A stretch of 54,113 nt of DNA from a virus (IMGVR_UViG_3300027797_000037:1-54113), one strand, 5' to 3'; positions 38,249-52,306 are shown, numbered from the stretch's first letter. Program-made: numbers and translations. The notes: generated by a model from the letters alone, not told the origin.

Positions 38249-38581
38249 TTACTGCTCGCTTCCGTAAGCCTGAAATCCTACTGAGGTAGATGACGCAGAG
38301 ACACGGATAAACTTGCTTGCTTGAAGAGTCAGGCCCAAAGTGTATGTTGTTGTTGTATTAGGCTGGATTAAAACACTTGCTGCCAGAAGAGTTGCGTCAG
38401 GCACTGTTGGGCTTGTTTCTGAACCAGCAATTGCAATACTGTAAGTAGCAGGGGTTGTGCCCTGGTTTGAAACAACAAGAGTTGAAACTACAGCACTAAC
38501 AGCCGTAGTGGTGTACAGGGTGCTGTATGCACTTGCTGCTGTTGCTAATGCTTGACCCAAAACTTTATATGCAGTTGCCAT
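38249..38581 (-). CDS. Small virion structural (fibre adaptor) protein
   Basis: MATAYKVLGQ..LYT..VVSTLVVSN..AYGSE; paralog of 47077..47412. Confidence 0.7.
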   Translation of the reverse strand: MATAYKVLGQALATAASAYSTLYTTTAVSAVVSTLVVSNQGTTPATYSIAIAGSETSPTVPDATLLAASVLIQPNTTTTYTLGLTLQASKFIRVSASSTSVGFQAYGSEQ

Positions 38582-38646: not shown

Positions 38647-39210
38647 TTAACCTATCTTTTCTAAGTTATTGATTACTGACGCTTTGTACAGGGGGGCAAT
38701 ATCCTTAGTTAACAAGTCTTTAAAGATATCTCGTGCCTCATCTTGCCGCCCTACCCACCAGCCGCTTACAGCCTTTTCAAATAGAAGGACGTATTCACCC
38801 AAATAACCAATATCTACAGGAAGAGGGTTAATACGGCTCTTGGAAAAGAACAGTCCAACTTCAGCCGCAGCATAAGATTCTTGCCATTTCTTCGAGCCTT
38901 CGTAATACCTAGACAAGAAGAACCAGCCTTCTGGTCGATTAGGCATGTAAGCAATTGCTTTTAAAATCAAATTCAATACGGTGGCTTCACGATTTTTTTG
39001 ACTTGAAAAACAAGTAGATGACTTTAGAAGAGATGAGTACACGTAGTCAGGATGAGTGGTGTATCCGTACTCCGCTGCTCTAAGGTAGAACGAGACTGCC
39101 GATGCGGTTTGCCCCTCTGCTTCATATGCTTTAGCAATTTCCAAACTTAGTACGGGATTAAAAGGATCTTTAGAGATATCCACGATCAAGGTATTGATTG
39201 TCTCAAACAT
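38647..39210 (-). CDS. TPR-repeat protein
   Basis: A.SFYLRAAE, KAIAYMPNRPEGWFFLSRYY; start trimmed to MFETIN. Confidence 0.8.
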   Translation of the reverse strand: MFETINTLIVDISKDPFNPVLSLEIAKAYEAEGQTASAVSFYLRAAEYGYTTHPDYVYSSLLKSSTCFSSQKNREATVLNLILKAIAYMPNRPEGWFFLSRYYEGSKKWQESYAAAEVGLFFSKSRINPLPVDIGYLGEYVLLFEKAVSGWWVGRQDEARDIFKDLLTKDIAPLYKASVINNLEKIG

Positions 39211-40207
39211 TAGTGCCCATCGCTTCCTGGATAAGTTCATCTACAATTTCTTTTGGAACCTCTAATGCAAAGGCTGCATTGTCTTGGAACCCAAACCCAA
39301 GAATTAAGTTGTCATTTACAACTGCCGCTCCAGCACAAAATTCAATCTGTCCATCTAGGAAAGACCAGTTAGTCGGTGAGATTCCAACTAACTTAAAGTT
39401 GTCATCCCATACACATAGTCGATGACGATAAGTTCCGTCCTTTTGTCCTAGATAGTTCTTGAAGAGAACAACTTCATGAGTGATTGCAATGTAGTGTAAT
39501 CCCCATCGTATTACCTGTGATCCACCACGTTGGTCTTCATCGGCTTTCTCTCCCTGTATGACAGAAAGTTGAAGGCTGTTACCATTTACAGGATCTGCTT
39601 TTACAAGTTCTGTGGGAGCGGTCCACTTAACATACTGAAATGGTCGGTCTAAAACAGGCATCCAGTTTTTCTCGCAGTAAGAGTCTTTGTTTATTGGAGG
39701 ATCTATACGCACACGAGAAACTTCTTTTGCAGTCCATGCATCTTTGTCAATCTCTAACTGAGACAGTTCCATACGACCAACACCATTTGTTGTGGTATCA
39801 CGACGAACTCCTGTGGCGTAGTACTTGCCATACCACTTAACAAGACGCGCATCTTCTTCTCCTACAAAAGTCCAAATAGGTGTTACATCTAAAGTTGTAG
39901 TGTCTATCAATGTGTGGTTAACAATGTTGAGGTCAGAGTCAAGGCGGCATAAAAAGTTTTGTGTTACTAACCGCTGGTCTTGTTCAGGATGAAGATACGA
40001 CAGGGGTCCCCAGATACTAGGAAAACGTTGATTATTTTCAGCGTGATAAAGGGTGTAGTTAATGTGACGCAGTATGCAGAGGATGTCTCCATCATCATCT
40101 AGAAACAATGAGGGGTTCATCAAGCCTGTCCCATTAGTTATTGAAGAAGGGATTATTAAGGGCTTTAGTTTTCCGCCTCTAGAAGTTACCTTTTGCACCA
40201 AGTTCAT
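39203..40207 (-). CDS. Five-bladed beta-propeller glycoside hydrolase/phosphorylase (GH130-like)
   Basis: MNPS, EDARL, EKNWMP, RGGS, IEFCAG, GFQD. Confidence 0.75.
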   Translation of the reverse strand: MNLVQKVTSRGGKLKPLIIPSSITNGTGLMNPSLFLDDDGDILCILRHINYTLYHAENNQRFPSIWGPLSYLHPEQDQRLVTQNFLCRLDSDLNIVNHTLIDTTTLDVTPIWTFVGEEDARLVKWYGKYYATGVRRDTTTNGVGRMELSQLEIDKDAWTAKEVSRVRIDPPINKDSYCEKNWMPVLDRPFQYVKWTAPTELVKADPVNGNSLQLSVIQGEKADEDQRGGSQVIRWGLHYIAITHEVVLFKNYLGQKDGTYRHRLCVWDDNFKLVGISPTNWSFLDGQIEFCAGAAVVNDNLILGFGFQDNAAFALEVPKEIVDELIQEAMGTNV

Positions 40208-41018
40208 GTTTTAAACCTTCTACTTCAGATTGGACAATGTTATTAAACGGTTGAATGGGAACCCATCCTATTGTGCTTACTTCTTTTACAGTGGGGTAAA
40301 CGGTAGTGTCTTTTGTGTCTCCATACAGTACCAGAACGTCTACACCGTTAGCAGCGTACTGCTCAAGTATTTGCGGAACAGTATGCTGTGTTCCACTGTA
40401 GACATCTGTAAGGATTGAAGTCCCACCCTTGAGCAGGTATGAAACCGCACAAAGATTTGCCTTAGCAATGTCTTCTACATGCGTGTAGTCACGGGTAGAG
40501 GTAGGGTCATTAACAGTGAAAGTCTTCTTCCCTGTAACGGCTCGGTTGATAACTCCAAAGATGTTTACTGATCTCAAGTCAATAGAGCCATTGGATTGCC
40601 CTCCGATGTTGAAGTATCGAAGGATAACGTTCTTGGGAACTCTTTTAATAATCTGTTCTTCTATCTTCTTGGCTTTAGCGTATGGGTTAGTTGGCTCATA
40701 AACAGATGCTGAAGAAGAAAACACAATGGGCGTTTTAAATGCCCACGATAAGAAAGCCACAACCAAGGTAGAAAGGACATTGTTGTAGTAGTAAGAGACA
40801 GGGTGCTTTAGGGATTCACCGATACTCTTCTTAGCAGACAGGTGAACCACTGCCACAGGACGATACTTAGCGTAGGTCTTTGACATGGCTAAGAGATCCT
40901 TAGTGTCATTCCCAGACACCTGGTCAACAATGACACAGGTAAACCCCTGGCTTTCTAGCAGGGCTACAGTAGATCTCCCAATGTAACCGAGGCCTCCAGT
41001 AACAAGAATATTAGGCAT
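40179..41018 (-). CDS. galE: NAD-dependent NDP-sugar 4-epimerase (GalE-like)
   Basis: TGGLGYIG, GES..YY.NNV, FSSSASVY, YxxxK, LRYFN, RDYTHVED. Confidence 0.85.
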   Translation of the reverse strand: MPNILVTGGLGYIGRSTVALLESQGFTCVIVDQVSGNDTKDLLAMSKTYAKYRPVAVVHLSAKKSIGESLKHPVSYYYNNVLSTLVVAFLSWAFKTPIVFSSSASVYEPTNPYAKAKKIEEQIIKRVPKNVILRYFNIGGQSNGSIDLRSVNIFGVINRAVTGKKTFTVNDPTSTRDYTHVEDIAKANLCAVSYLLKGGTSILTDVYSGTQHTVPQILEQYAANGVDVLVLYGDTKDTTVYPTVKEVSTIGWVPIQPFNNIVQSEVEGLKHELGAKGNF

Positions 41019-41071
41019 ACCATTAGCCTAACAAACTTTTAATAATCTACAGCCTAGTGTAAGATGTTTTT
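41019..41071. promoter_or_regulatory. Divergent pair of leaderless promoters
   Basis: Minus TAGGCT-6 nt-ATG (41030-41016); plus TAAGAT-6 nt-ATG (41060-41074). Confidence 0.65.
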
Positions 41072-41539
41072 ATGACACGTGACTTATTGGCTATTTTAAA
41101 TACTAAGTCTTGTTCAGGGTGCACAAAGTGCTGTGAAGGTTACCTTTCAACAAATATCAAAGGGCATAATGTGTCTTTAGGTAACCCCTGTCCTTTTGTT
41201 ATTAAAGACGTTGGATGCAATGACTATAAAAACCGTCCACTAGAGCCTTGCGTTACATTTGAATGTGAATGGCGTCGTAACCCATATTTTGATGAGTGGT
41301 TAAGCCCCGCCAATTCACAAGCATTGTTTACTAGACAAGTAGTAGAAGGAATTTTTTACGTACTCTTAACAGAAGCAGGAAAACCTTTAGACACAAAAGT
41401 TTTAACTTGGGGAATTGAATACGCACAAACTCACCAAGTAAATCTTTCTTGGAACATAGATGGTCATCAGTCTTGGGTTGGAACACCTGAGTTTTGTAAA
41501 ACTATGGAGGGTAAGTACAAAAACCAACCTGCTTTATAG
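41072..41539 (+). CDS. YkgJ-like CxxCxxCC cysteine-cluster protein
   Basis: CSGCTKCC..CPF..GC..Y.NRP..C..F.C.W; only plus-strand gene. Confidence 0.8.
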   Translation: MTRDLLAILNTKSCSGCTKCCEGYLSTNIKGHNVSLGNPCPFVIKDVGCNDYKNRPLEPCVTFECEWRRNPYFDEWLSPANSQALFTRQVVEGIFYVLLTEAGKPLDTKVLTWGIEYAQTHQVNLSWNIDGHQSWVGTPEFCKTMEGKYKNQPAL

Positions 41540-41540
41540 G

Positions 41541-42146
41541 TTAAATTTTTCCCATAATCTTTGCAATTTGGTGCAATGCCTCTGGTCGAACACCGCTAGG
41601 AAGATCGTTCATCCAACTTACAAGAACAAACTTTTCTCCCTCTGTCACAGGAGTTGCAGAATGTATGTACGCATAGTTTGCTGGAAATATAACAATCGCA
41701 GGTTTTGTTGGTTTTACCAACAAGTCAAAATTCCTAAAATGTGTTCCGCCACCCTCGTACTCATGTGGGTTTAAGTAAACAAGAATAGAGGCTGTTCTGT
41801 AGATGTCCCAGTTAGTATCTACATGGTAATCATACTTCTGAGTTATCCCATAACGAAGCATGTTAAAACCTTCATCTTGTGTTATAGAGATTTCGTTTTT
41901 GCTTGAGTAATGGTTAATTGCAGGTGTGGTGTGTTTTCGAATCTCATCATCCCAAAAAGGAAATACCTCTGGAAAACGTAACCCTCTACTGGTACGAATT
42001 TCTTGCTCAGGGTGCTCTCCGTGACCTACGTCGCTTTTTTTCCACGGTAATTCAGTACTTTGTCGGCACATGTCTACAATGTTTTTGGCTAAAATTTCTG
42101 GCAAATCGTATTGATATACTCCAATACCAAGTTCCGTATGCTCCAT
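41541..42146 (-). CDS. 2OG-Fe(II) oxygenase, prolyl 4-hydroxylase-like
   Basis: YHVD, SILVYLN, YEGGGTHF, IFPANYAYIH, PV..G.K..LVSW. Confidence 0.9.
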   Translation of the reverse strand: MEHTELGIGVYQYDLPEILAKNIVDMCRQSTELPWKKSDVGHGEHPEQEIRTSRGLRFPEVFPFWDDEIRKHTTPAINHYSSKNEISITQDEGFNMLRYGITQKYDYHVDTNWDIYRTASILVYLNPHEYEGGGTHFRNFDLLVKPTKPAIVIFPANYAYIHSATPVTEGEKFVLVSWMNDLPSGVRPEALHQIAKIMGKI

Positions 42147-42863
42147 TTACTGTACCTTTCGTTTAAATAGTTTTCTAGTCCAAAGTTTTTTTTGGTAATA
42201 CCTATCTATGCTTTGTATGTTTTCTTGGGTAATCTGATCTAACTTTGAGTCTATCTTATTGTACCCTATTTCCCAAGCACTTCTAACAAAAGGAATGATT
42301 TGTGCTAAAGGAGTTCCCGCAGCAATCTTTACCTCTCTGGTGTACTCAAAAGGCTTAATTGTAAACAGCACATTTAAAGGTGTGTAGAACTTGTCTGTGT
42401 CAATTATTCCTGGCATAACCTCTGTCTTTAGGTCAGGCCTGTACGGAGGCTGGATCATCATGATGCTTGTATTTTTTGAGGTCTTTACTTTGTAAGGAAG
42501 AACAACTTTTTCTACACCAAACTTCTGCATAGAAACGGCTGCGTCTGGGTACATACCTAGTTGCACTTGAGGATGAGAACTAAATAACCCCTCTCGGTTA
42601 TCGTCTCGTGTTCTTTTAACAAAGAGTTTGTTGTTCTCATCTCTAGTGATTGTTACATCAAAAGGCCAAACAACCATATAGCCAGAAGTCATAATGTCAT
42701 ATAAACCACGACAAGTTTTAGCGGTCTTCATTGTGTCGTTAGTCGTTAACCCTTTAAACCATTCAGGAAGATGTTCTTCTGCTGGAGTTGGTTTATACTC
42801 GTTTATGTGGTGCTCTGGTCCCAGGTCATGGCTGGGAGAGTCTATGTTAATTGTAAATTTCAT
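42147..42863 (-). CDS. DUF6065-like protein (dUTPase-like beta fold), paralog 2
   Basis: LPEWFK, TAKTC, D.MTSGY, PGIIDTD, GTPLAQIIPF.R. Confidence 0.65.
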   Translation of the reverse strand: MKFTINIDSPSHDLGPEHHINEYKPTPAEEHLPEWFKGLTTNDTMKTAKTCRGLYDIMTSGYMVVWPFDVTITRDENNKLFVKRTRDDNREGLFSSHPQVQLGMYPDAAVSMQKFGVEKVVLPYKVKTSKNTSIMMIQPPYRPDLKTEVMPGIIDTDKFYTPLNVLFTIKPFEYTREVKIAAGTPLAQIIPFVRSAWEIGYNKIDSKLDQITQENIQSIDRYYQKKLWTRKLFKRKVQ

Positions 42864-43582
42864 TTAAACACCTTCTTATTCCAAAAAGTTTTCTTGTATC
42901 GATTTTCAAATAAAACAGAGTGAGCCTCTAAGTTTTTTGTTTTTTGTCCTGATTCAAGAGAAGAGTACTCTGCCGTCCACTCAGCCCGCTTAAATGGGAT
43001 GATCTGAGCCACAGGAGTTCCCGCAGGGATAACGCCTTCAAATCCTGCTTGAAGTAAAAAAGGAAACTGTACAGACAATTTAAAGTGATCGGCGTCTACA
43101 ATCCCAGGAAGAATAGAAAAAGGCAAATCATCTCTATGCATTGGCTGTGTAAATAGAACGCTCCAACCATCTGGAACTTTTACAATCCATGGGTTAAACC
43201 ACTTAAGAAACTCTGGCCCATATCCTTTAGGGATATTGAGGGTCGAAGCCTGTTCGTGAGTATGAGATGTGACCATTTTAGTTTGAATTGGCCAAGTAAA
43301 TGAAGGAGCCCCCTGAGCATCACGAGACACAAATACATCACAAGGTAGAGTAATAATGTACCCCGCTGTCATAGCATCAAATACAGGCATGCATTTTTTT
43401 ACAGTTTGATTGGCTCCACTCTCTTGGTAGATTCTTTGATTGTTTACGTGTGTCGGTAGTTTTTTGTACCAATCAGGTATGTGTTTACTGGCGGGTGATG
43501 GTTGTGGAAAATAATCTAAGTCTTTTTCCTCACAGATAAACTGTATGACTTGATTAGTTTCTTCCTTCGTTTTGTTTAACAT
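42860..43582 (-). CDS. DUF6065-like protein (dUTPase-like beta fold), paralog 1
   Basis: IPDWYK, TVKKCMP..DAMTAGY, PGIVDAD, GTPVAQIIPFKR; start trimmed. Confidence 0.65.
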   Translation of the reverse strand: MLNKTKEETNQVIQFICEEKDLDYFPQPSPASKHIPDWYKKLPTHVNNQRIYQESGANQTVKKCMPVFDAMTAGYIITLPCDVFVSRDAQGAPSFTWPIQTKMVTSHTHEQASTLNIPKGYGPEFLKWFNPWIVKVPDGWSVLFTQPMHRDDLPFSILPGIVDADHFKLSVQFPFLLQAGFEGVIPAGTPVAQIIPFKRAEWTAEYSSLESGQKTKNLEAHSVLFENRYKKTFWNKKVFK

Positions 43583-44786
43583 CTTCAAACCAGTCATAAT
43601 CCGCATCGTACATCCAATCAATATAGTCGTTAATTGAATACGTATAAATTTCAGTTGAAAAATTTATAGCCTCAGTAATCTTATTGTGCAGCATTTTGTC
43701 TACAGGTGCAAGTAATTGCCTATTGTCGTAGTCAACACCAGCAAACTGTTCGTAGTCAGTAAATGATCTTGGTGTTTTCTTTAACTTTTTTAACTCCTCA
43801 AAAATCTTTAAACTACCTTTTTCTTTGTTTCTATAACCGTGAGTTGCATACGTTTCAGGAAAGTCGTCAATTGGGTGGTTTCTACTTTGTATAAGAACTT
43901 GTTTATTTGCCTCACTGTAGTAATGCATAACACCCGTTACACGAGGAACATAGAAGTTGTACCCTTTCATATAAGCCAAAATTGAATAGTACTGCTCTTC
44001 TTCAAGGAACCTAATGTCACGATTTGCAGGCACTTCACTAACAAAAGACCCTGCTGTAAAAATTTGTGCAGGAGATACCGCACATGCAAAAGCAATAGTC
44101 TCAAATAAAGTAAAGTGACGATCTCCGTGTCGTGGAAAACCTATCTCTTTAAAAAATTGTGCAGGACCTAAACCTATACGAAAACAAGGGACATTGTTAT
44201 GCCCCCTACGCTGTCTAAAGTAAACTTCTTTAGACATCGGGTTGTAGTAAGGGTAAGCGCCATCAACACTAGGAAAAATATCTGGAGCATAGGCTCGTGG
44301 ATAACCTGTTATAAGAGGCTTTGGCTCTCCTAAAGCAACGAGGTTTTGATAATGGTGAATAAGTAAATCATCCCAATGCATGTCAAAACGCATATGAGCA
44401 TCAATTTGTAAAAAGTAATCTTCGTTGTTAAACATAAGCAGTGCGTCTGCACGCTGATTTCCAAGCCCTACATTTTTTGGTAGCGCTTCTTTAGCAAGAA
44501 TCTTTACGTTTTTGTACTTCTTTTGGATAGCAGTCCAATAATCTACATCTTCTTTTTTGTAAACAAGACCAACGCCGATAAAAACACGCTCAGGATTTTT
44601 AGCGTTTAAATACACGCTATCAATAGTTGCTACAAGTTCTTCGTCTCTATAACAAGGTATAGCAATAAAAATTGTTTTAGAATCACGATCTTCAGACTTT
44701 GTATCAAAAAGTGATTTGTAACGATACTCATTTTCTAGTTCATTTAAGATTACTCTATCAGCATTTTTCATCACATGATAAGCCAT
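43554..44786 (-). CDS. GT60-like GlcNAc-transferase (Skp1 hydroxyproline GlcNAcT family)
   Basis: IFIAIPCYRDEEL..T...A.NPERVFIG, YFLQIDAHMRF..WD..LI, F.EEE, HYY, RS..DY..FAG. Confidence 0.82.
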   Translation of the reverse strand: MAYHVMKNADRVILNELENEYRYKSLFDTKSEDRDSKTIFIAIPCYRDEELVATIDSVYLNAKNPERVFIGVGLVYKKEDVDYWTAIQKKYKNVKILAKEALPKNVGLGNQRADALLMFNNEDYFLQIDAHMRFDMHWDDLLIHHYQNLVALGEPKPLITGYPRAYAPDIFPSVDGAYPYYNPMSKEVYFRQRRGHNNVPCFRIGLGPAQFFKEIGFPRHGDRHFTLFETIAFACAVSPAQIFTAGSFVSEVPANRDIRFLEEEQYYSILAYMKGYNFYVPRVTGVMHYYSEANKQVLIQSRNHPIDDFPETYATHGYRNKEKGSLKIFEELKKLKKTPRSFTDYEQFAGVDYDNRQLLAPVDKMLHNKITEAINFSTEIYTYSINDYIDWMYDADYDWFEDVKQNEGRN

Positions 44787-44795
44787 TACTATCTC

Positions 44796-45470
44796 CTATA
44801 CGACGAATTCCTTTGCGGTTCCAGAAGCATACCCAGAAACATCTAAATCAACAGCATTTGTTCGTGTAGCCTGTGAGACATACACGATAACTCCGCCACC
44901 TGTGACATACGAACCACCAGTGTAGCCCGTTGCATAAATCGTACCATAACCCGATACCTTGCGAGCACAGACAACTACAACTCCACCACCATAGTTAGTG
45001 TTATTACCAGCACCGCCACGTAAAAAGAGAGGAGTTGTTTGAGAGGCAGAAAGGATGTATCCAGCAACTGCATGACGTGCTAATGAGAAGTACTCTGCAG
45101 GAGAGGGTGCAGTCGCTGTGTATGAAGCGCTGGCTCCTCCCAGACTTGTGGTAACGGAAGCAAGTCCTCCGCTAGAGACTGTTCCTACTGCAGATGATCC
45201 ATTCTTTAACCCAATACTTGTGGTTGCTTTGTTACCAACAGCAGTAGAAAAAGATAAAGAGTTACGAACAAACACACGGTATCCCGCAGTATTGAGATGG
45301 ATTCCATCTGCAATAGTTAAATTGCTATAATACATGTCACGAGTGAGTGTGGTGTTTGTGCTAATAGTTACATTGCCATCTTTTCCAGAGCCATAGATTT
45401 CATCTGGAACAGCAATAAAACTTGAGGTTGAGGTAGAAGACCCTACACTTGACACGCCGTAGTTACCCAT
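44796..45470 (-). CDS. Gly-rich fibre-tip protein, short paralog
   Basis: YGSGKDGNVTISTNTTLTRDMYYSNLTI..AGYRVFV shared with next gene. Confidence 0.72.
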   Translation of the reverse strand: MGNYGVSSVGSSTSTSSFIAVPDEIYGSGKDGNVTISTNTTLTRDMYYSNLTIADGIHLNTAGYRVFVRNSLSFSTAVGNKATTSIGLKNGSSAVGTVSSGGLASVTTSLGGASASYTATAPSPAEYFSLARHAVAGYILSASQTTPLFLRGGAGNNTNYGGGVVVVCARKVSGYGTIYATGYTGGSYVTGGGVIVYVSQATRTNAVDLDVSGYASGTAKEFVV

Positions 45471-45484
45471 AAGATCCTCGTTTC

Positions 45485-47077
45485 TTAGATTACTTCATGA
45501 TTAATAAGGACAATTGTACCCGCAGAAGAAGTTCCTGACTGCCCTGTAGCACCAGGTGCTGCACTAGTTGTTAACCCAACTGGGAGTGTGCTGGTGGACA
45601 TTACAAACAAAACTCCACCTCCACCAACAAATCCAGAACTTCCTGTTGCACCTGTTCCTCCAGATGTGGCTGTTCCTCCCGCACCTCCCGCACCTCCTGG
45701 ATAGGTAAGGGGCGTGTTATACGTAGATGCATTCCCTGCGACCGTGTTATAGGTAAGTCCAGTACCTGCAGTAAAAGTGTATGTAGGTACGTTGTTTGCA
45801 TTTACAGTTGATCCAGTACCTGCGGTGTAAGTATACGTTGGTGAGTTGTTAGGGTTTGTTGTTGCGCCACTACCTGGGCTATAACTGTATGAAGGTGGAT
45901 TATTTGCATTTGTTGTTGCGCCACTACCTGGGCTATATGTATACGAAGCAGCATTAGTGTTTCCTGGACTAAAACTATAAGTGGGAGCATTCCATTTATT
46001 CGCACTAACCTGGTTACCAAAACCTTCTAAAACTGAACCAGGTGGGTTTGTATTACCTGCTGTGTAAGTATAAGAAGGTGGATTATTTGCATTTGTAAAT
46101 GCGCCACTACCTGGGCTATAACTGTATGAAGGTGGATTATTTGCATTTGTTGTTGCGCCAGTACCTGCAGTAAAAGTATACTTAGGTGCGTTGTTAGCAT
46201 TTGAAAATGATCCACTACCTGCGGTATATGTATACTTTGGTGCGTTATACGTTGCTACAGGAGTTGTTGGAGAGTTATACACAGAGGCATTACCACTTAA
46301 GTATAAAGTTGGAGCAGGAGCACCTGCTGTACCAGCAGTTCCTGCATTACCTGGAGCACCTGCAGAACCTGCAGAACCTGCTACACCGTTTACTGCAATG
46401 ACACCATCACCAACAATAGTCTTAGCAAGAACTATAACTACTCCGCCACCTGCCCCACCCAAACCTCCAGCACCGCCTGCTCCTCCAGTACCTGCAGTAC
46501 CTGCAGTACCTGTTGCTCCTTTCCCACCTGCCTCACCAACTGAGTTTGCACTTGGTGGGTAACTTCCTGCAGAGCCTGCAGATCCAGAGTTAGAAGTTCC
46601 TGCATTACCTGTCGCACCTGCTGCTCCAGTTGATCCGCCTGCTCCACCAGAAATAGCAGATACATCACCTGTAGTTGCATCGATGTATAGGGTTGAAATT
46701 AAACTTGTAATGTTGTAGTAAAACTCTTTTCCTGCAGCAATCTGTGTTGCAGTTGTGTCACCACTATTGCCGCCTAAAGAACTAGAGGCGTTATTTCCAA
46801 CAGTTGCTCCTCCACCAATAGTTCCAACAGCAGTTGTATTAGTAAGACGAGAAATTTTAGAGGTGCCATCAACAAAGGTCAAAGTGCTTTTGACAAAAAT
46901 ACGGTAGCCAGCAGGATCAAGATTGACACCTGAGTTAATCGTCAGATTGTTGTAATACATGTCTCTAGTAAGAGTCGTATTAACCGTCAGGGTCACATTT
47001 CCGTCTGAACCATTACCGTATGCAAACAACCCGCCTAAGCGGGTGTTGACCACGATAGGTACGGATGAAAGGGACAT
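45485..47077 (-). CDS. Gly-rich fibre-tip protein with Asn/Pro/Tyr repeat insertion
   Basis: Same N-domain as 44796..45470; GxAG runs; NANNPPSYSYSPGSGATT repeats. Confidence 0.75.
   Translation of the reverse strand: MSLSSVPIVVNTRLGGLFAYGNGSDGNVTLTVNTTLTRDMYYNNLTINSGVNLDPAGYRIFVKSTLTFVDGTSKISRLTNTTAVGTIGGGATVGNNASSSLGGNSGDTTATQIAAGKEFYYNITSLISTLYIDATTGDVSAISGGAGGSTGAAGATGNAGTSNSGSAGSAGSYPPSANSVGEAGGKGATGTAGTAGTGGAGGAGGLGGAGGGVVIVLAKTIVGDGVIAVNGVAGSAGSAGAPGNAGTAGTAGAPAPTLYLSGNASVYNSPTTPVATYNAPKYTYTAGSGSFSNANNAPKYTFTAGTGATTNANNPPSYSYSPGSGAFTNANNPPSYTYTAGNTNPPGSVLEGFGNQVSANKWNAPTYSFSPGNTNAASYTYSPGSGATTNANNPPSYSYSPGSGATTNPNNSPTYTYTAGTGSTVNANNVPTYTFTAGTGLTYNTVAGNASTYNTPLTYPGGAGGAGGTATSGGTGATGSSGFVGGGGVLFVMSTSTLPVGLTTSAAPGATGQSGTSSAGTIVLINHEVI
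45700..46310 (-). repeat. About 54-bp coding repeats (18-aa unit)
   Basis: Near-identical GCGCCACTACCTGGGCTATA and GAAGGTGGATTATTTGCATTTGT blocks recur. Confidence 0.85.
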
Positions 47078-47412
47078 TATGAAATTTCTACTCCAGATAT
47101 GTGAACGTTGATGGAACTGGTTGCAGAGGCAAGACCATGGATGGAGGCACCTGTAGGGATAACAATAGCAGTATCAATCTGTAGTGTGGTATTAGCCGAA
47201 ACTAAAACTTCACCATAAACTTTATTTGCAGCAGAAGCAGAACCAGCACTAGGAACAATGTGAAGAGTCGCACGAGCATCAACAGCGCTGTAATTAGCCA
47301 AAAGAATGGTCTTTACTGTTGTGGTTGTGGACGCAGGGACAGTGTACAAGGAAGCAGCGCTGGCTGTGAGAGTAGCGGCTGCTTTGAGTTCCTTAGTTGT
47401 ATATGTAGCCAT
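47077..47412 (-). CDS. Small virion structural (fibre adaptor) protein
   Basis: LYTVPASTTTTVKTILLAN...HISGVEIS. Confidence 0.72.
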   Translation of the reverse strand: MATYTTKELKAAATLTASAASLYTVPASTTTTVKTILLANYSAVDARATLHIVPSAGSASAANKVYGEVLVSANTTLQIDTAIVIPTGASIHGLASATSSINVHISGVEIS

Positions 47413-47427
47413 TTTTATCCTTTTCTT

Positions 47428-48678
47428 TTAGAAGACTAGAGCGTAATACCAAGAATCATCAGGAGAAATTGTACCAGTAGTTCCTTGGGTTCCTGTAGCA
47501 CCTTGGGCTCCAGTTGTACCTTGTGTACCTGTCGTTCCTTGAGCACCTGTTGTTCCTTGAGCACCAGTGGTTCCTTGGGCACCAGTATCACCTTGATCAC
47601 CAGTACGAGCAAAAGTGATAATTATGTCTTCTAGGTTTGCAAAAGATCCGTTACCAGATACATAAGAACAGTTGACTGTAAACCATCCCGTATTGTTAGT
47701 AAGAGAAGTTATTGTATAAAGCGCAAATACTGAAGCATCAAACTTTTTAGAAACTCTGAAGTGACCCTTAACGGTAGATGTAGAGTCATCAATAGTGTTT
47801 AAGAAAGATGAGATATCGGTGCTTTCATCGTTAGATGAGTCAATGTACAAAACCGTTGCAGATGATAAAGTTGCATTGTTAAATTGAATCTTTCCAACAC
47901 CTGGGTCTGTTGCAGTTACAGTTGTACTATATGTATAGTCAAATGTAGCGCCACCAAAGTTACCGTTTTGTCCTGTAATTCCCTGGGTACCAGTAGTTCC
48001 TTGAGTACCCGTAGTTCCCTGGGTACCATCGGTACCTTGAATTCCCTGGGTGCCAGTCGTACCTTGGGTTCCTGTAGTACCTTGGGTACCTGTTGTACCC
48101 TGAGCACCGATTGCGCCCTGTAACCCAGTCTCTCCCTGTGTTCCTGTAGCACCTTGGGCTCCAGTTGTACCTGTTGCTCCCTGTGTACCAGTCGTACCCT
48201 GTGTACCAGTCGTGCCCTGTGTACCTGTTGTTCCCTGGGTACCGTCGGTACCCTGTGTACCTGTAGCGCCCTGTGTACCTGTGGTTCCCTGTGTACCAGT
48301 GGTTCCCTGAGAACCTATAGTTCCTTGAACTCCTTGGGTACCTGCGGGTCCTTCTACTCCTTGTAATCCAGTTCCACCGATTGTTCCTTGGGCGCCTGTT
48401 GTTCCCTGGGTACCATCGGTACCTTGAATTCCCTGGGTGCCTGTAGTGCCTTGGGTACCAGTGGTTCCAGTAGTTCCTTGAGTACCCGTAGTTCCCTGTG
48501 TTCCAGTGGTTCCTTGAACTCCTGTGAAGTAGTCAAGTGAATTCCATGCTGTGTTTCCATCACCAATTTTAAATTGATTGTTGGTAGTGTTATAACCAAT
48601 TTCACCCACGCTTAAAGTTGGGTTAGCATTTGTCCACTGTGTCCCAGTACCACGACGCACTTGAATCTTTGTTGCCAT
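47428..48678 (-). CDS. Collagen-like fibre with Mtd_N-type N-terminal domain
   Basis: KIQVRRGT..W...NPTL..GEIG....FKIGDG.TAW..L.Y; long GTQGTT runs. Confidence 0.88.
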   Translation of the reverse strand: MATKIQVRRGTGTQWTNANPTLSVGEIGYNTTNNQFKIGDGNTAWNSLDYFTGVQGTTGTQGTTGTQGTTGTTGTQGTTGTQGIQGTDGTQGTTGAQGTIGGTGLQGVEGPAGTQGVQGTIGSQGTTGTQGTTGTQGATGTQGTDGTQGTTGTQGTTGTQGTTGTQGATGTTGAQGATGTQGETGLQGAIGAQGTTGTQGTTGTQGTTGTQGIQGTDGTQGTTGTQGTTGTQGITGQNGNFGGATFDYTYSTTVTATDPGVGKIQFNNATLSSATVLYIDSSNDESTDISSFLNTIDDSTSTVKGHFRVSKKFDASVFALYTITSLTNNTGWFTVNCSYVSGNGSFANLEDIIITFARTGDQGDTGAQGTTGAQGTTGAQGTTGTQGTTGAQGATGTQGTTGTISPDDSWYYALVF

Positions 48679-48893
48679 TATGGTGTACCTCCATCAAGTT
48701 CAATTAAATATGTCTCAGACGGAGTTCCGCCATTAATATTTATAACACTGTCACCTACAGAGTTCCACATTGCACCATCATAAGTCTTAATTGTGTTATA
48801 TGTGGTGTTGTAATAAGTATCACCAGCAGTCTGGCCCGTAGGATCGTTGGCAGCAGGCAAAAGGCCTAGTGGTACAACAAACTTACGGGCCAT
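48678..48893 (-). CDS. Small fibre-associated protein
   Basis: MARKF N-terminus and GDTYYNTT..IKTYDG..W motif shared with next gene. Confidence 0.7.
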   Translation of the reverse strand: MARKFVVPLGLLPAANDPTGQTAGDTYYNTTYNTIKTYDGAMWNSVGDSVININGGTPSETYLIELDGGTP

Positions 48894-48911
48894 ACTAGTT
48901 AACTCCTTTTA

Positions 48912-51740
48912 TTACGCTTGGACTACTACTCGGTAAGTTTCTCCTGAAGCAGGAGCAACTGCAAACCCGATAGTCACTGTTGTGTCAGTAATGTATGTAA
49001 CATCTGTTACAACTTCCATTGCGCTAGAGACTTCATAGATTTTGACCTGAATGTCTGTTGTTCCCAAAGCGTGGGTCAACGTCCATTGAGTTTGAGAGTA
49101 TGGAGATGCTGGTGTAATGGTAGATGCGTACTTGCGTACAACAACTGCTGTGTCAATCTTAAGACCATTTGCAGACTTAGAAAGTCCAGAAGCGGTATCA
49201 AGTTTTGCACTAAATGTTGAACCAGTTAAATCAATACCGTCCCCAGCCAGATACGTTCCAGCCCCTGAGAACTGTGAGAATGTAAGTGCTGTAGTGTCAA
49301 GTGTTATTGCATCGTCTGTTGTAAGAACCCAACCAGTGTTTCCATTGGTTGTACCCTCTGATACGAAGGTAAATAGGCCAGCGGTAACTTCTGCGCTTAG
49401 ATTTGCATCTTCTGCGCGAGTAGGCGCACCTGTTGAATTTACGGTATAGATACCGTTTTCTGAGCCAGTTGCCTGATTCTTAATAAGGATTCTGTTGCCA
49501 GTAGCAAGCGTTACTCCATCTACCACATCGCCATTTTCAAACGATGTTGCAAGAGTTCCAGCCACTGCAGTTGCTACACGAACTGATGCTTTAACATCTA
49601 GTCCGCTTGCAGTTGCATCAACATATGCCTTTGTAGCAATAGTTGTGGTATCAACTGTGAGTGCTCCACCACCTGAAAGTGATAGACCAGAACCTACAGA
49701 GAGGATTCCAGCATTCTCACCTTGGATACCTTGGGCGCCTGTTGTTCCCTGGGCGCCAGTTGTACCTTGTGAGCCTGTAGTTCCTTGTGAACCTGTGGTT
49801 CCCTGAGTTCCAGTGGTTCCCTGGGTACCAGTCTCACCTTGAGCACCAATGGTGCCCTGTGCTCCTGTGTAACCCTGTAGACCTTGCTCGCCTTGCAAGC
49901 CTGTCGTACCTTGGGCTCCAATTGTACCTTGGGCTCCTGTCTGTCCTTGAAGTCCTGTCTCGCCCTGAGCACCTGTAGTGCCTTGAGAGCCTGTAGTTCC
50001 CTGGGTGCCAGTCGTACCTTGAGTACCTGTTGTACCCTGGGTGCCTGTTGTACCTTGGGCGCCAGCAGTACCTTGAGCACCAGTCGTACCCTGTACACCT
50101 GTAGCACCGTCAAGGTTGATTGACCATGCAGCGTAAGTTCCTGAACCAACAATGTCGTTAACATTTACAACAAGAGTGTCAGTTCCTGATGTGTAACTGA
50201 CTACAGTTGCAGACATGTGGTTGTTTGCATCGTAAGCAACTACTACGTCTTGTCCTACAGAATAAGAAAGAGCAGCATCAGCAAGTACAAACGAAACGTT
50301 GTTTGCTACCGCAATTGTACGTGAAGTAGTAGAGGTTGTCTTATAACGATCTGAGTGGCCTTGTACACCCTGTGAACCTGTAGTTCCCTGGGAGCCTGTT
50401 GTACCTTGGGCTCCCGTGGTTCCTTGTGTACCAGTCTCACCTTGAGTACCAGTAGTTCCCTGAGATCCAGTAGTTCCCTGTGCACCAGTTTGACCTTGTA
50501 GACCAGTTTCTCCTTGCGTACCTGTGGTTCCCTGGGTACCAGTAGTTCCCTGTGCACCAGTTTGACCTTGTAGACCAGTTTCTCCCTGAGATCCAGTAGT
50601 TCCCTGTGAACCTGTAGTGCCCTGGGCTCCAGTTTGACCTTGTAGACCTTCAGCACCCTGAAGTCCTGTTTCTCCTTGAGTACCTGTAGTACCTTGCGTA
50701 CCAGTTTCACCCTGGGTACCAGTGGTTCCTTGGGCACCAACAGTACCTTGTGTACCAGTCTCTCCCTGTGCACCTGTAGTTCCTTGGGCACCGACATCAC
50801 CAGTACGAGCAAAGGTAAGTAGTGTCTCATCGTTGTCAGCAAAAGATCCGTTACCAGATACATACTCAACGGTTACATCGTGGTAGGAAGCGGCTCCTGG
50901 ACCCACATGTGTTAGCCCAGAGATTGTAAATAGTGCAAATGTTGATGCATCGAACTTCTTAGAAATCTTAACGTGACCCTTGATTGTAGAAGTTGAGTCA
51001 TCGATTGTGCTTAAGAATGGTGTTAAATCAAAGTTTCCATCAAGTGGATTGTCATCAATTACTAAGTGTGTTGCACTTGAAAGTGTTGCGTTGTTAAACT
51101 TTACGTAGTTATCGCCTGGGTCGGCAACAGTGTAACTAGTAGTATCAATGTAGTACTGAACAGTTACGCCACCAAATGAACCTGCAACACCAGTCTCACC
51201 CTGGGTACCAGTAATACCTTGTGTACCTGTTTCACCTTGGGTTCCTGTTGTACCCTGTGCGCCATCAGTACCTTGAGCACCTTCAGTACCTTGAGCACCT
51301 GTAGTGCCCTGTGTACCTGTAGTGCCCTGTGTACCTGTAGTACCTTGCGCTCCTTCAATTCCTTGTGTACCTGTTTCGCCCTGCGCTCCTGTTGTTCCCT
51401 GAGCACCGTTAGAGCCGTTTGTTCCTTGTGTACCTGTAGTGCCTTGGGCACCTTCAGTTCCTTGGGTTCCTGTAGTGCCCTGTGTACCAGTAGTGCCTTG
51501 GGTACCAGTAGTGCCTTGGGTACCAGTGGTTCCTTGCGCTCCTGTAGTGCCTTGGGTACCTTGGCTTGCGTTGATCCAAGCAGTACCGTTCCAGGTCTTT
51601 ACTACCTTGTCGTTAGTGTCATAGTAAATCTGACCTTCGACTGGTGATGCTGGTGCCGATACTGATGCTAGGTTTTGAATACGAGCATTCTGTAGTTCAA
51701 GTTTTCCTAGATCAATCGGTGTTAAAAATTTACGGGCCAC
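48912..51740 (-). CDS. Large collagen-like fibre protein
   Basis: Three Gly-X-Y blocks separated by globular domains; ATKAYVD..GLDVKASVRVAT..KNQ..ENGIY domain. Confidence 0.88.
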   Translation of the reverse strand: MARKFLTPIDLGKLELQNARIQNLASVSAPASPVEGQIYYDTNDKVVKTWNGTAWINASQGTQGTTGAQGTTGTQGTTGTQGTTGTQGTTGTQGTEGAQGTTGTQGTNGSNGAQGTTGAQGETGTQGIEGAQGTTGTQGTTGTQGTTGAQGTEGAQGTDGAQGTTGTQGETGTQGITGTQGETGVAGSFGGVTVQYYIDTTSYTVADPGDNYVKFNNATLSSATHLVIDDNPLDGNFDLTPFLSTIDDSTSTIKGHVKISKKFDASTFALFTISGLTHVGPGAASYHDVTVEYVSGNGSFADNDETLLTFARTGDVGAQGTTGAQGETGTQGTVGAQGTTGTQGETGTQGTTGTQGETGLQGAEGLQGQTGAQGTTGSQGTTGSQGETGLQGQTGAQGTTGTQGTTGTQGETGLQGQTGAQGTTGSQGTTGTQGETGTQGTTGAQGTTGSQGTTGSQGVQGHSDRYKTTSTTSRTIAVANNVSFVLADAALSYSVGQDVVVAYDANNHMSATVVSYTSGTDTLVVNVNDIVGSGTYAAWSINLDGATGVQGTTGAQGTAGAQGTTGTQGTTGTQGTTGTQGTTGSQGTTGAQGETGLQGQTGAQGTIGAQGTTGLQGEQGLQGYTGAQGTIGAQGETGTQGTTGTQGTTGSQGTTGSQGTTGAQGTTGAQGIQGENAGILSVGSGLSLSGGGALTVDTTTIATKAYVDATASGLDVKASVRVATAVAGTLATSFENGDVVDGVTLATGNRILIKNQATGSENGIYTVNSTGAPTRAEDANLSAEVTAGLFTFVSEGTTNGNTGWVLTTDDAITLDTTALTFSQFSGAGTYLAGDGIDLTGSTFSAKLDTASGLSKSANGLKIDTAVVVRKYASTITPASPYSQTQWTLTHALGTTDIQVKIYEVSSAMEVVTDVTYITDTTVTIGFAVAPASGETYRVVVQA

Positions 51741-51751
51741 GGTCTATCTCC

Positions 51752-52306
51752 TTAAGATATGTAGGCTTTACCTGAGAAAGCGGAAGAAAAAGAGACCGTT
51801 AATGAGTTCGAATTAGTATACGCAATTTCACCTTCAACTATGTTACCAGCAGAGTCTACAACTGTAACGTTAGGCTTGAAGCCTAAATTATGAGCAATTA
51901 CCCAAGAGTCGCTGGTGACCCCTTGAGTGTGTTCGTACGATACCCGTCCAATTGTAAAGTACTTATTTGTAACGCCTTCTGTAAGATCATCTGTATTGTC
52001 CAATGTAGCGCCAGAAATACCTTGGAGACCTGCAGTACCTGCAGTGCCTTGAGCACCTGTTGCACCTTGAGTACCAAGACCTTGAGTACCTTGTACGCCC
52101 TGTGTACCTTGAGTACCAGTTGTGCCCTGACGACCCTGAACGCCTTGAGTACCTTGGGCTCCTGTTGTTGCGCCTCCACCAGAACAACTTCCACAACCGC
52201 AACCTGATGCGTGGACAGTTCCTTCTGGAGTAGTAATGAGGACAACGTTATTGACCGCAATAGGAACAGTGTCAGATCCTGGGCGGGTGTATTGATTTGG
52301 ACTCAT
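51752..52306 (-). CDS. Short collagen-like virion protein
   Basis: GxQ repeats, TDDLTEG..NKYFT, W.IAHNLG..P.VTV. Confidence 0.8.
   Translation of the reverse strand: MSPNQYTRPGSDTVPIAVNNVVLITTPEGTVHASGCGCGSCSGGGATTGAQGTQGVQGRQGTTGTQGTQGVQGTQGLGTQGATGAQGTAGTAGLQGISGATLDNTDDLTEGVTNKYFTIGRVSYEHTQGVTSDSWVIAHNLGFKPNVTVVDSAGNIVEGEIAYTNSNSLTVSFSSAFSGKAYIS

What the first reader, a model, noticed from the sequence alone, without database searches (positions are those of the whole stretch)
41541..47077. Candidate phage proline hydroxylation and O-GlcNAc pathway encoded beside its repeat-bearing fibre substrate
Seen: one co-oriented run with a fibre carrying NPPSY-type repeats, its short paralog, a GT60-like transferase, two DUF6065-like paralogs and a prolyl-4-hydroxylase-like oxygenase. 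Known: in Dictyostelium, PhyA hydroxylates a Skp1 proline and the GT60 enzyme Gnt1 adds GlcNAc to it. Inference: the phage uses the same two-step chemistry to decorate the fibre insertion, forming a substrate-plus-tailoring cassette for the virion surface.
Basis: partly seen in the sequence, partly recalled or inferred. Interest (0 to 1): 0.85.

Follow-up and report, generated by a model that had tools for sequence, protein, structure and literature searches.

The report
Phage tail fibre with tailoring enzymes
An uncultivated freshwater phage encodes a tail-fibre protein with a floppy repeat-rich insert right next to a sugar-adding enzyme and a proline-hydroxylase-like enzyme, a pairing that recurs in many related phages and suggests that phages chemically decorate their fibres.

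Summary
Six co-oriented genes on the minus strand (41541-47077) encode a long fibre with eight x-P-[TSK]-Y-[TS]-[YF]-[TS] repeats, a short paralog, a PF11397 (GT60) glycosyltransferase, two paralogous dUTPase-fold proteins and a collagen/algal-type prolyl-4-hydroxylase-like oxygenase.

The idea of a substrate next to its tailoring enzymes gains comparative support. In 62 loci of this fibre family, a P4H-like gene follows the fibre pair in 59 and a DUF6065-like gene in 60. The fibre's insert is hypervariable and predicted disordered. Its composition tracks enzyme content: all 32 His-rich inserts sit with a tryptophan-halogenase homologue, and all 11 His-free Tyr/Thr/Pro-rich inserts sit with GT60. 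These traits changed only 1-3 times on the tree, so descent is not excluded.

The strict Skp1-like Hyp-then-GlcNAc relay is not supported as stated:
- The oxygenase resembles collagen-type P4Hs, not PHD-type enzymes.
- 45 of 59 oxygenase-bearing loci lack GT60.
- 20 of 43 GT60 loci have no oxygenase in the fetched flank.
- GT60 lies beside (TP)n/(SP)n-rich proteins in unrelated phages.

I read the two enzymes as making separable modifications of the fibre insert. No chemistry has been measured.

The parts
48912..51740 (-). Collagen-like tail fibre (942 aa) made of G-T-Q/G-T-T triplets, essentially proline-free. Context gene; rival glycosylation substrate.
   Evidence: PF01391 E 1.5e-61; tail-fibre PHROGs; sequence
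47428..48678 (-). Second collagen-like tail fibre (416 aa), proline-poor.
   Evidence: PF01391 E 2e-36; sequence
47077..47412 (-). Small 111-aa protein ('p111', phrog_1276) that precedes the long fibre in most related loci.
45485..47077 (-). Long fibre protein P0006 (530 aa): conserved N-domain, Gly-rich core, insert, Gly-rich C-terminal part.
45725..46276 (-). Repeat insert of P0006 (residues 268-451). Composition Thr 17%, Asn 16%, Ser 12.5%, Pro 11%, Tyr 9%. Eight x-P-[TSK]-Y-[TS]-[YF]-[TS] units. Candidate substrate.
   Evidence: pLDDT below 50 over 268-294, 298-408 and 410-451; counts; period 54 nt
44796..45470 (-). Short paralog P0005 (224 aa). It shares the N-domain and lacks the insert. 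It is 66-84% identical among the four close relatives aligned.
43554..44786 (-). GT60-family (PF11397) glycosyltransferase P0004 with a conserved D-A-H motif. No N-terminal hydrophobic segment was seen by eye.
42860..43621 (-). dUTPase-fold protein P0003 (DUF6065-like, phrog_7084). The start codon is uncertain; the listed TTG overlaps the GT gene by 68 nt.
42147..42863 (-). Second dUTPase-fold paralog P0002.
41541..42146 (-). P4H-like 2OG/Fe(II) oxygenase P0001 with H108-x-D110, H162 and K172.
41072..41539 (+). 155-aa protein of unknown function (phrog_9155) on the opposite strand, conserved at this place in close relatives.
40179..41018 (-). GalE-like NAD-dependent sugar-nucleotide epimerase; possible donor supply.
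   Evidence: PF01370 E 3.9e-25; TIGR01179 E 7.6e-34, below cut-off
39203..40207 (-). 334-aa conserved protein with no family hit. The GH130-like resemblance is a lead only.
38647..39240 (-). TPR protein (197 aa). Orthologues in L003/L004 are 421-422 aa and, in L004, carry an FkbM methyltransferase domain that is missing here.
38249..38581 (-). Second p111 paralog, closing the enzyme island on its downstream side.

Best explanation
This is a tail-fibre tailoring module of an uncultivated freshwater myovirus.

The long fibre protein has a compact Gly-rich core. A flexible, hypervariable, low-complexity insert projects from it; here the insert is eight Thr/Tyr/Asn/Pro-rich 18-residue repeats. The genes immediately behind the fibre pair encode enzymes that modify this insert in the host cytoplasm before or during virion assembly.

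I propose two separable modifications rather than an obligate relay:
1. The GT60-type polypeptide glycosyltransferase adds a HexNAc to the insert, most likely on its abundant Thr/Ser and possibly on hydroxyproline. The GalE-like epimerase would supply or interconvert the UDP-sugar.
2. The collagen/algal-type P4H-like oxygenase hydroxylates proline. The target would be either the single conserved Pro of each repeat or the near-invariant Ala-Pro at the insert's N-terminal boundary.

The two dUTPase-fold proteins belong to the conserved module, but their chemistry is unknown.

Shown: gene content, family assignments, catalytic motifs, the disordered insert and the conserved synteny. Inferred: that the fibre is the substrate, which residues are modified, the sugar, and any effect on adsorption or stability.
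For: Family assignments:
- PF11397 at 100 bits and PF13640 at 47 bits.
- A profile of the phage oxygenases hits B. anthracis P4H (1.3e-30), chlorovirus P4H 5c5t (4.8e-22), Chlamydomonas P4H (1.6e-21) and human C-P4H alpha-2 (5e-17).
- The HxD...H...K motif is conserved in 13 of 13 aligned sequences; the Lys column is nearly invariant.

Substrate logic:
- The neighbouring collagen-like fibres are G-T-Q/G-T-T and nearly Pro-free.
- Neither the window nor a 130.5-kb relative rated 100% complete shows any (TP)n array.
- The AF2 model of the fibre is confident for the core, but residues 268-451 fall below pLDDT 50.

Synteny across the fibre family (178 relatives found, 80 loci kept):
- Of 62 loci with at least 6 kb behind the fibre, 59 have a P4H-like gene and 60 a DUF6065-like gene. 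The loci span fibre-core identities down to about 30%.
- Homologues of P0001 (28-62% identity) occur in all three clades.
- Insert type tracks enzymes: His-rich with halogenase in 32 of 32 loci and GT60 in 0 of 32; His-free with GT60 in 11 of 11 and halogenase in 0 of 11.

Independent phage lineages:
- P4H-like and GT60 genes are adjacent beside proteins with PNVTPQVTPA or (TP/SP)n repeats in group D and in the crAss-like group E.
- TP/SP-type windows occur in 30 of 43 GT60 loci against 8 of 72 GT60-less phage loci.
- Within two 150-164-kb contigs, such arrays lie only within about 17 kb of the GT60 gene.

Other:
- Relatives add GT25, GT2 and methyltransferase genes to the island.
- Contigs from four metatranscriptome libraries are identical to pieces of the P4H, DUF, GT and fibre genes, but DNA carry-over was not excluded.
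Against: - No modification has been measured, and no solved GT60 structure or acceptor determinant was available.
- The covariation of enzymes with insert type is confounded by descent. On a tree of 45 distinct fibre cores, halogenase changes once, His-richness once, GT60 three times and His-freeness twice. Only 1-2 independent contrasts exist and the sign test is far from significant.
- Many loci are near-duplicates, so the raw counts overstate independence.
- Conserved gene order in phage structural modules can persist without functional coupling.
- DUF6065-like genes are widespread: 2423 clusters and at least 591 viral stretches. In 79 loci fetched through them, only 7 hold GT60 and 6 a P4H-like gene. 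In halovirus HSTV-2 the homologue sits beside thymidylate synthase and DNA polymerase, which points to nucleotide metabolism rather than fibre tailoring.
- Iyer et al. 2010 read the cyanophage dioxygenase/halogenase/dUTPase-fold clusters as secondary metabolism.
- The fibre family has no match among 50,697 deposited phage records, so no virion proteome confirms that it is structural.
Confidence: 0.4

Rival explanations
1. The oxygenase makes 4-hydroxyproline in the N-[AP]-P-x-Y repeats, and the GT60 enzyme then attaches GlcNAc to that hydroxyproline, as PhyA and Gnt1 do on Skp1.
For: - GT60 membership.
- A P4H-like enzyme with intact motifs.
- One Pro is conserved per repeat in the window and in relatives.
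- P4H-like and GT60 genes are directly adjacent in 12 crAss-like loci and near each other in 6 group-D loci, beside Pro-rich repeat proteins.
- GT60 is the family of the only known Hyp-GlcNAc transferase (PMC8724618, passages).
Against: - 45 of 59 oxygenase-bearing fibre loci lack GT60.
- 20 of 43 GT60 loci have no P4H-like gene in the fetched flank, and 0 of 5 larger group-B contigs hold PF13640 although (TP)n proteins sit next to the GT.
- The oxygenase is collagen-type, not PHD/PhyA-type.
- GT60 also holds Thr/Ser-directed enzymes, and the insert is about 30% Thr plus Ser.
Confidence: 0.2
2. The enzymes are an accessory island that makes or alters a small molecule, a peptide metabolite or a host-envelope glycan. 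They merely lie next to the fibre genes.
For: - Iyer et al. 2010 described cyanophage Syn9 clusters of dioxygenases, tryptophan halogenases and a dUTPase-fold protein with a conserved Cys, and proposed organohalogen secondary metabolites.
- Iyer et al. 2021 read glycosyltransferase/2OGFeDO clusters of jumbo cyanophages as capsular-polysaccharide or metabolite systems.
- DUF6065-like genes are mostly found without GT60 or P4H-like genes.
Against: - I saw no NRPS, peptide ligase or transporter among the ORFs I scanned in the island; not every small ORF was scanned.
- The characterised relatives of both enzymes act on polypeptides.
- The island is bracketed by structural-type genes, p111 upstream and its paralog downstream.
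- The enzyme genes stay attached to one fibre family over deep divergence.
Confidence: 0.15
3. The GT60 enzyme glycosylates threonines of the G-T-T/G-T-Q collagen-like fibres encoded just upstream, stabilising a proline-free triple helix. The oxygenase acts elsewhere.
For: - Three collagen-like proteins with Thr in most X/Y positions lie within 7 kb upstream.
- Thr glycosylation of collagen-like repeats is known in Bacillus BclA and in Riftia cuticle collagen (recalled, not checked here).
Against: - Of the 14 GT60-bearing fibre-family loci tabulated, only 4 (all close relatives of the window) have a collagen-like neighbour within the 9-kb flank.
- GT60 in other phages sits beside (TP)n/(SP)n proteins, not beside collagen-like ones, in most loci.
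Confidence: 0.08
4. There is no shared function. A hypervariable region behind the fibre genes collects unrelated accessory genes, and the co-occurrence reflects common descent and insertion hot spots.
For: - Only 1-3 state changes on the tree.
- The downstream gene sets differ even among close relatives: GT25, GT2, methyltransferases, and the loss of a methyltransferase domain here.
Against: - P4H-like and DUF6065-like genes are retained in 59 and 60 of 62 loci across clades whose fibre cores are 30-47% identical to the window's.
- P4H-like and GT60 genes are adjacent in two unrelated phage groups next to Pro-rich repeat proteins.
Confidence: 0.12

Closest known systems
Dictyostelium/Toxoplasma Skp1 pathway (PhyA prolyl 4-hydroxylase, then Gnt1, a GT60 Hyp-GlcNAc transferase)
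   Same: A cytoplasmic GT60-family enzyme is encoded together with a prolyl-hydroxylase-like 2OG oxygenase.
   Different: The oxygenase is collagen/algal-type, not PHD/PhyA-type. There is no Skp1. The two genes are not obligately paired in phages. The substrate would be a repeat array, not a single site.
Protist mucin-type O-GlcNAc initiation by GT60 pp-alpha-GlcNAc transferases (Dictyostelium, T. cruzi)
   Same: The same CAZy family acts on Thr/Ser-rich low-complexity arrays (PMC8724618, passages). Phage GT60 genes lie beside (TP)n/(SP)n proteins.
   Different: Those enzymes are Golgi membrane proteins of eukaryotes. The phage enzymes would act in a bacterial cytoplasm on virion proteins. The phage proteins are divergent: P0004 scores 100 bits against 189-245 bits for the group B and C examples tested.
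Plant/algal hydroxyproline-rich glycoprotein pathway and the chlorovirus PBCV-1 prolyl 4-hydroxylase
   Same: The nearest solved relatives of the oxygenase include the Chlamydomonas and chlorovirus P4Hs. These act on Pro-rich repeats such as (Ser-Pro)n and (Pro-Ala-Pro-Lys)n (recalled). Hyp is then O-glycosylated in plants.
   Different: Plant Hyp glycosylation uses arabinosyl and galactosyl transferases of other families, not GT60. The host here is bacterial.
Mycobacteriophage virion glycosylation (Freeman et al. 2023)
   Same: Phage-encoded glycosyltransferases O-glycosylate terminal parts of capsid and tail-tube subunits. I know this only from citing passages; the paper itself was not read.
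   Different: Different glycosyltransferase families as far as I recall, no hydroxylase, and the targets are capsid and tail tube rather than a fibre insert.
Cyanophage Syn9 dioxygenase/halogenase cluster (Iyer et al. 2010, PMC2938197)
   Same: [quoted passage not shown] That description matches the DUF6065-like proteins here: invariant Cys77 and a dUTPase-like fold.
   Different: It was interpreted as secondary metabolism. In the passages I read there is no link to a fibre family and no GT60. I could not see its Figure 4 or supplement.

Membership tests
GT60 / PF11397 (GlcNAc transferase family) | Profile match above the curated threshold | tested here: met
   E 2.6e-28, 100 bits against a cut-off of 21. 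The own-genome scan gave 67.1 and 29.7 bits.
GT60 / PF11397 (GlcNAc transferase family) | GT-A type metal-binding D-x-H/D-x-D motif | tested here: met
   The D of the Q-I-D-A-H-M-R-F motif is invariant in the 4 aligned relatives, where position x is Ala or Ser. The pattern D[AS]HMRFD retrieved 42 phage relatives. That this is the catalytic motif of GT60 is recalled, not tested.
GT60 / PF11397 (GlcNAc transferase family) | UDP-GlcNAc donor and polypeptide acceptor (Hyp or Thr/Ser) | not testable with these tools
   No solved relative by sequence. Needs an enzyme assay.
Collagen-type prolyl 4-hydroxylase (2OG-FeII_Oxy_3, PF13640) | Profile match above threshold, with P4Hs as the nearest solved relatives | tested here: met
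   47.3 bits against a cut-off of 27. The top 9 distinct PDB sequences are all prolyl 4-hydroxylases, E 1.3e-30 to 6.3e-13.
Collagen-type prolyl 4-hydroxylase (2OG-FeII_Oxy_3, PF13640) | Fe(II) triad H-x-D...H and the basic residue that binds 2OG | tested here: met
   H108, D110 and H162 are invariant and K172 nearly invariant in 13 sequences.
Collagen-type prolyl 4-hydroxylase (2OG-FeII_Oxy_3, PF13640) | Peptidyl-proline as substrate | not testable with these tools
   Homologues accompany Pro-poor, His-rich inserts too, so another residue or a conserved site cannot be excluded.
Skp1-type PhyA/Gnt1 relay | PHD/PhyA-type hydroxylase | tested here: not met
   The profile E-value to PHD2 is about 2e-6, against 1e-30 to 5e-17 for collagen-type P4Hs.
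Skp1-type PhyA/Gnt1 relay | Hydroxylase and GT60 occur as an obligate pair | tested here: not met
   45 of 59 oxygenase-bearing fibre loci lack GT60. 20 of 43 GT60 loci lack a P4H-like gene in the fetched flank. 0 of 5 group-B contigs hold PF13640.
DUF6065 (PF19541) | Profile match above the curated threshold | tested here: not met
   P0003 scores 20.3 bits against 26.6, and P0002 has no hit. Both are clear members of phrog_7084.
dUTPase-like fold superfamily | Fold similarity and a motif-3-like G-x-[VI]-D-x-D | tested here: inconclusive
Collagen triple-helix repeat (PF01391), for P0006 | Profile match above threshold | tested here: not met
   14.5 bits against 27.2. The Gly-rich parts are not regular G-X-Y over long runs.

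The most novel reading that the evidence does not exclude
A large, uncultivated family of aquatic myoviruses carries a fibre whose exposed, hypervariable low-complexity insert is chemically rewritten by clade-specific enzyme sets. A flavin halogenase goes with His-rich inserts. GT60 glycosyltransferases go with Tyr/Thr/Pro-rich inserts. A P4H-like oxygenase and a dUTPase-fold protein with a conserved Cys go with nearly all. This would be a phage-encoded post-translational toolkit that tunes the receptor-binding or adhesive surface. In chemistry it recalls hydroxylated, Tyr-rich mussel adhesive repeats and halogenated His-rich marine biomaterials (both analogies recalled). It would also reassign the long-puzzling cyanophage dioxygenase/halogenase clusters from secondary metabolism to virion tailoring.
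Probability: 0.3. Interest if true: 0.88.

Novelty: new variant of a known kind. Interest (0 to 1): 0.72.

Why it matters
Phage-encoded glycosylation of virions is so far known mainly from mycobacteriophages. I found nothing in print on prolyl hydroxylation or halogenation of phage fibres.

If the enzymes here modify the fibre insert, host range and adsorption in abundant freshwater phages would depend on chemistry that cannot be read from the fibre sequence alone. The many 2OG oxygenase, halogenase and glycosyltransferase genes scattered through aquatic phage genomes would gain a concrete, testable substrate.

It would also extend GT60 and collagen-type P4H chemistry to bacterial viruses. The recombinant test is simple: one fibre insert, two enzymes, mass spectrometry.

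Tried and rejected
Searches that found nothing:
- Megablast of 41000-48700 and tblastn of P0004 and P0005 against 50,697 phage records gave no match.
- The short paralog of a His-type locus gave one weak hit of 46 bits. No cultured phage or virion proteome could therefore be used.
- phmmer and a profile of the GT against PDB sequences gave nothing usable.
- The word-indexed protein search for the GT returned 45 proteins, all unnamed or labelled only 'GlcNAc-transferase family'. I could not place P0004 relative to Gnt1 or to Thr/Ser-type GT60 enzymes.

Structure comparisons:
- Foldseek of the fibre model found no PDB match.
- It found only low-TM (0.31 or less) Gly-rich matches in BFVD. I draw nothing from these.
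- The atlas hit of P0005 to Mtd_N (0.84) and of the 334-aa protein to GH130 (0.95; Pfam on 32% of members) are leads only.

Ideas rejected or downgraded:
- Collagen as the hydroxylase substrate was rejected because the triplets are Pro-free.
- I hoped the link between insert type and enzymes would give a statistical test. The tree shows only 1-2 independent contrasts, so it does not.

RNA libraries:
- Contigs of four metatranscriptome libraries cover the region. Contigs cannot show transcription, and no silent stretch was laid as a control.
- Parts not covered in X16-X18 mean nothing.
- Leaving out the three possible source samples, the four runs that hold half or more of the words (X4-X7) are all labelled freshwater metagenome.

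Tools and sources I could not use:
- Complex prediction was not used, because an enzyme-substrate pair is a poor case for it.
- Supplements are closed. Figure 4 and the supplementary data of PMC2938197, which may show the Syn9 neighbourhood in detail, were not seen.

My own slip: alignment A4 included a mistaken 3-residue reference (L102:1-10). It was discarded and redone as A5.

Full report
**What the window is.** The window is a 54-kb viral record rated about 55% complete. It encodes a tail sheath, baseplate wedge proteins, a family-A DNA polymerase, a DnaB-like helicase and a UvsX-like recombinase, so it is a myovirus. Nearly all genes are on the minus strand. Seven public runs hold half or more of the sampled words of the region, and all are labelled freshwater metagenome; three of them may be the source sample. 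No deposited phage genome resembles the region.

**The observation.** The six ORFs are as described.
- The glycosyltransferase P0004 is a clear PF11397 member (E 2.6e-28, 100 bits against a cut-off of 21).
- The oxygenase P0001 is a clear PF13640 member (E 4.4e-12).
- The two 'DUF6065-like' proteins are paralogs, 30% identical, and both belong to phrog_7084. Only one reaches even a sub-threshold Pfam DUF6065 score.
- The long protein P0006 has eight x-P-[TSK]-Y-[TS]-[YF]-[TS] units, three of them NPPSY. They are encoded by imperfect 54-nt repeats.
- P0005 shares its first ~100 residues with P0006 (51% identity, E 3e-16).

**Surroundings.** Upstream lie three collagen-like tail-fibre genes. Their triplets are G-T-Q and G-T-T with almost no proline, so a prolyl hydroxylase has nothing to do there.

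Downstream of the oxygenase lie:
- a GalE-like epimerase;
- a conserved 334-aa protein without a family, for which GH130-like is a lead only;
- a TPR protein;
- a second copy of the small 'p111' gene, whose first copy precedes the long fibre.

Close relatives (L003-L006, 54-70% identical in the GT) keep the same order. They add GT25, GT2-TPR-methyltransferase and TPR-FkbM-methyltransferase genes. The island is therefore a variable set of carbohydrate and tailoring enzymes.

**The oxygenase.** The H-x-D...H triad is invariant and the 2OG-binding Lys nearly invariant in 13 phage homologues. A profile of these sequences finds:
- B. anthracis P4H at 1.3e-30;
- the chlorovirus P4H at 4.8e-22;
- Chlamydomonas P4H at 1.6e-21;
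- human collagen P4H alpha-2 at 5e-17;
- lysyl hydroxylases near 3e-7;
- PHD2 near 2e-6.

It is a collagen/algal-type P4H relative, not a PhyA/PHD-type one.

**The GT60 gene in other phages.** A pattern scan found 42 viral loci with relatives. With the window that makes 43 loci, and 23 of them have a P4H-like gene in the fetched flank while 20 do not.
- The 23 comprise the window's own group (5), a group D (6) and a crAss-like group E (12; muzzle-protein domain).
- In D and E the neighbouring structural proteins carry PNVTPQVTPA repeats or long (TP/SP)n linkers.
- The groups without an oxygenase also have (TP)n or PTLPP-type proteins next to the GT. In 5 of 5 larger contigs of one such group, PF13640 is absent (these contigs are 27-56% complete).
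- By a strict criterion, TP/SP-type windows occur in 30 of 43 GT60 loci. They occur in 8 of 72 phage loci that lack GT60.
- In two contigs of 150 and 164 kb, such arrays lie only within about 17 kb of the GT gene.

Many of these loci are near-duplicates, so I count roughly five independent lineages. The pattern says that phage GT60 enzymes go with Pro/Thr/Ser-rich low-complexity segments of virion proteins, with or without a hydroxylase. GT60 is known to include both the Hyp-directed Gnt1 and Thr/Ser-directed polypeptide GlcNAc transferases (PMC8724618, passages).

**The fibre family.** A scan with the N-domain shared by P0005 and P0006 found 178 relatives, of which 80 loci were kept. Almost all show p111, a long and a short paralog (in either order), then one or two P4H-like genes and one to three DUF6065-like genes.

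Of 62 loci (window included) with at least 6 kb behind the fibre, 59 have a P4H-like gene and 60 a DUF6065-like gene. Homologues of P0001 are present in all clades at 28-62% identity.

The long fibres share:
- an N-domain;
- a Gly-rich core ending in G-G-G-V-V-x-V-x-A-K-T-I-x-G-x-G;
- a near-invariant Ala-Pro;
- a hypervariable insert;
- a [YW]-P-G-G-A-G-G C-terminal part.

The AF2 model is confident for residues about 20-265 and 452-530 and falls below pLDDT 50 over 268-451. The insert is thus a flexible or unmodelled excursion from a folded core. The core has no PDB match.

**Insert types and enzymes.** Inserts fall into three types:
- His-free and Tyr/Thr/Pro/Asn-rich, which includes the window;
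- Tyr/Asn/Ser-rich with about 10% His;
- His-rich, up to 41% in an 80-residue window.

A tryptophan-halogenase homologue (PF04820, E 8e-109) is present in 32 of 32 His-rich loci and in none of the others. GT60 is present in 11 of 11 His-free loci, 4 of 19 intermediate loci and 0 of 32 His-rich loci.

The caveat is serious. On a tree of 45 distinct fibre cores, halogenase and His-richness each change once, GT60 three times and His-freeness twice. That leaves 1-2 independent contrasts and no significance. The association may be inherited rather than selected.

**The dUTPase-fold proteins.** The family is large: 2423 clusters at E of 1e-3 or better. The model is good (pLDDT 89.7). Its Foldseek matches are all dUTPases or dCTP deaminase, at modest scores. 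Cys77, Asp176 and Asp178 are invariant in 49 sequences.

Iyer et al. [quoted passage not shown] They proposed secondary metabolism (PMC2938197, passages).

In 79 loci fetched through this family:
- tail-fibre-like neighbours occur in 49;
- p111 in 28;
- GT60 in 7;
- a P4H-like gene in 6.

In halovirus HSTV-2 the homologue sits next to thymidylate synthase and DNA polymerase. Its role is open: it may handle a nucleotide or nucleotide-sugar, or it may be a new kind of protein-modifying enzyme.

**Reading.** The most economical account is that the enzymes act on the fibre insert, but as separable modifications. The strict Hyp-then-GlcNAc relay is one possible sub-case, and I give it 0.2. The general fibre-tailoring reading with independent steps gets 0.4.

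The main rival is the older view that such islands make small molecules or alter host glycans (0.15). Against it:
- both enzyme families have polypeptide substrates in their characterised members;
- the island is embedded among structural-type genes;
- it stays with one fibre family over deep divergence.

A cyanophage virion proteome that detected a 2OG oxygenase annotated as a prolyl dihydroxylase (PMC12801897, section 7) is a tangential hint only.

**Prior art.** Full-text searches found no description of a phage P4H-GT60 pair, of DUF6065, or of hydroxylated or halogenated phage fibres. Virion glycosylation in mycobacteriophages (Freeman et al. 2023) is known to me only through citing passages.

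**Verdict.** It is a new variant of known kinds (virion glycosylation, viral P4H) with an unusually clear experimental test. Interest 0.72.

Noticed in passing
L178:9653-11251 and about 30 other loci (for example L183, L190, L202, L217): Long fibres of the same family carry His-rich inserts, up to 41% His in 80 residues. They are always followed by a tryptophan-halogenase homologue (PF04820, E 8e-109) lying between the P4H-like and DUF6065-like genes.
   Followed up: partly
window 38647-39240: The TPR protein is 197 aa here, but 421-422 aa in L003 and L004. In L004, Pfam finds an FkbM methyltransferase domain in the C-terminal half. That half is missing in the window, and the next gene (the p111 paralog) follows directly.
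   Followed up: partly
window 47428-52306: The three collagen-like fibre proteins use G-T-Q/G-T-T triplets with almost no proline. This is an unusual composition for a triple helix and a possible Thr-glycosylation substrate.
   Followed up: partly
L027:5743-7362: A 539-aa protein combines PNVTPQVTPA tandem repeats with a weak C-terminal Hint-like match (Hom_end_hint and PT-HINT, both below threshold). It sits directly upstream of a 399-aa P4H-like gene.
   Followed up: no
L037:8710-9984 and other group D/E loci: The P4H-like proteins of the crAss-like group and of group D are 399-428 aa. Only the N-terminal ~180 residues match PF13640. The C-terminal ~220 residues have no family hit and contain further His-rich motifs that might be a second oxygenase-like domain.
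   Followed up: no
L227 (halovirus HSTV-2, KC117376.1 28132-29001): The homologue of the dUTPase-fold protein (gene 40, 35% identical) lies next to thymidylate synthase and DNA polymerase. 46 of the 63 deposited phage records with a match carry Halorubrum or Haloarcula in the organism name.
   Followed up: partly
L037:11447-13237: A crAss-like muzzle-protein homologue (PF25729, E 9.6e-17) carries PT/PS-rich linkers and lies directly behind the GT60 gene.
   Followed up: no
L153:15228-16262: An IMP dehydrogenase/GMP reductase homologue (PF00478, E 5.7e-97) sits inside the enzyme island behind the fibre pair in one clade.
   Followed up: no
window 27489-30035: An 848-aa protein combines matches to PHROG families annotated as metallo-endopeptidase, peptidase or endolysin with matches to tape-measure families. 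It is probably a tape-measure protein with a lytic domain.
   Followed up: no
window 45858-46221 (run X5): One metatranscriptome-library contig skips 362 nt inside the repeat insert of the fibre gene, with 8 other letters in between. This fits repeat-number variation between strains or an assembly collapse.
   Followed up: no
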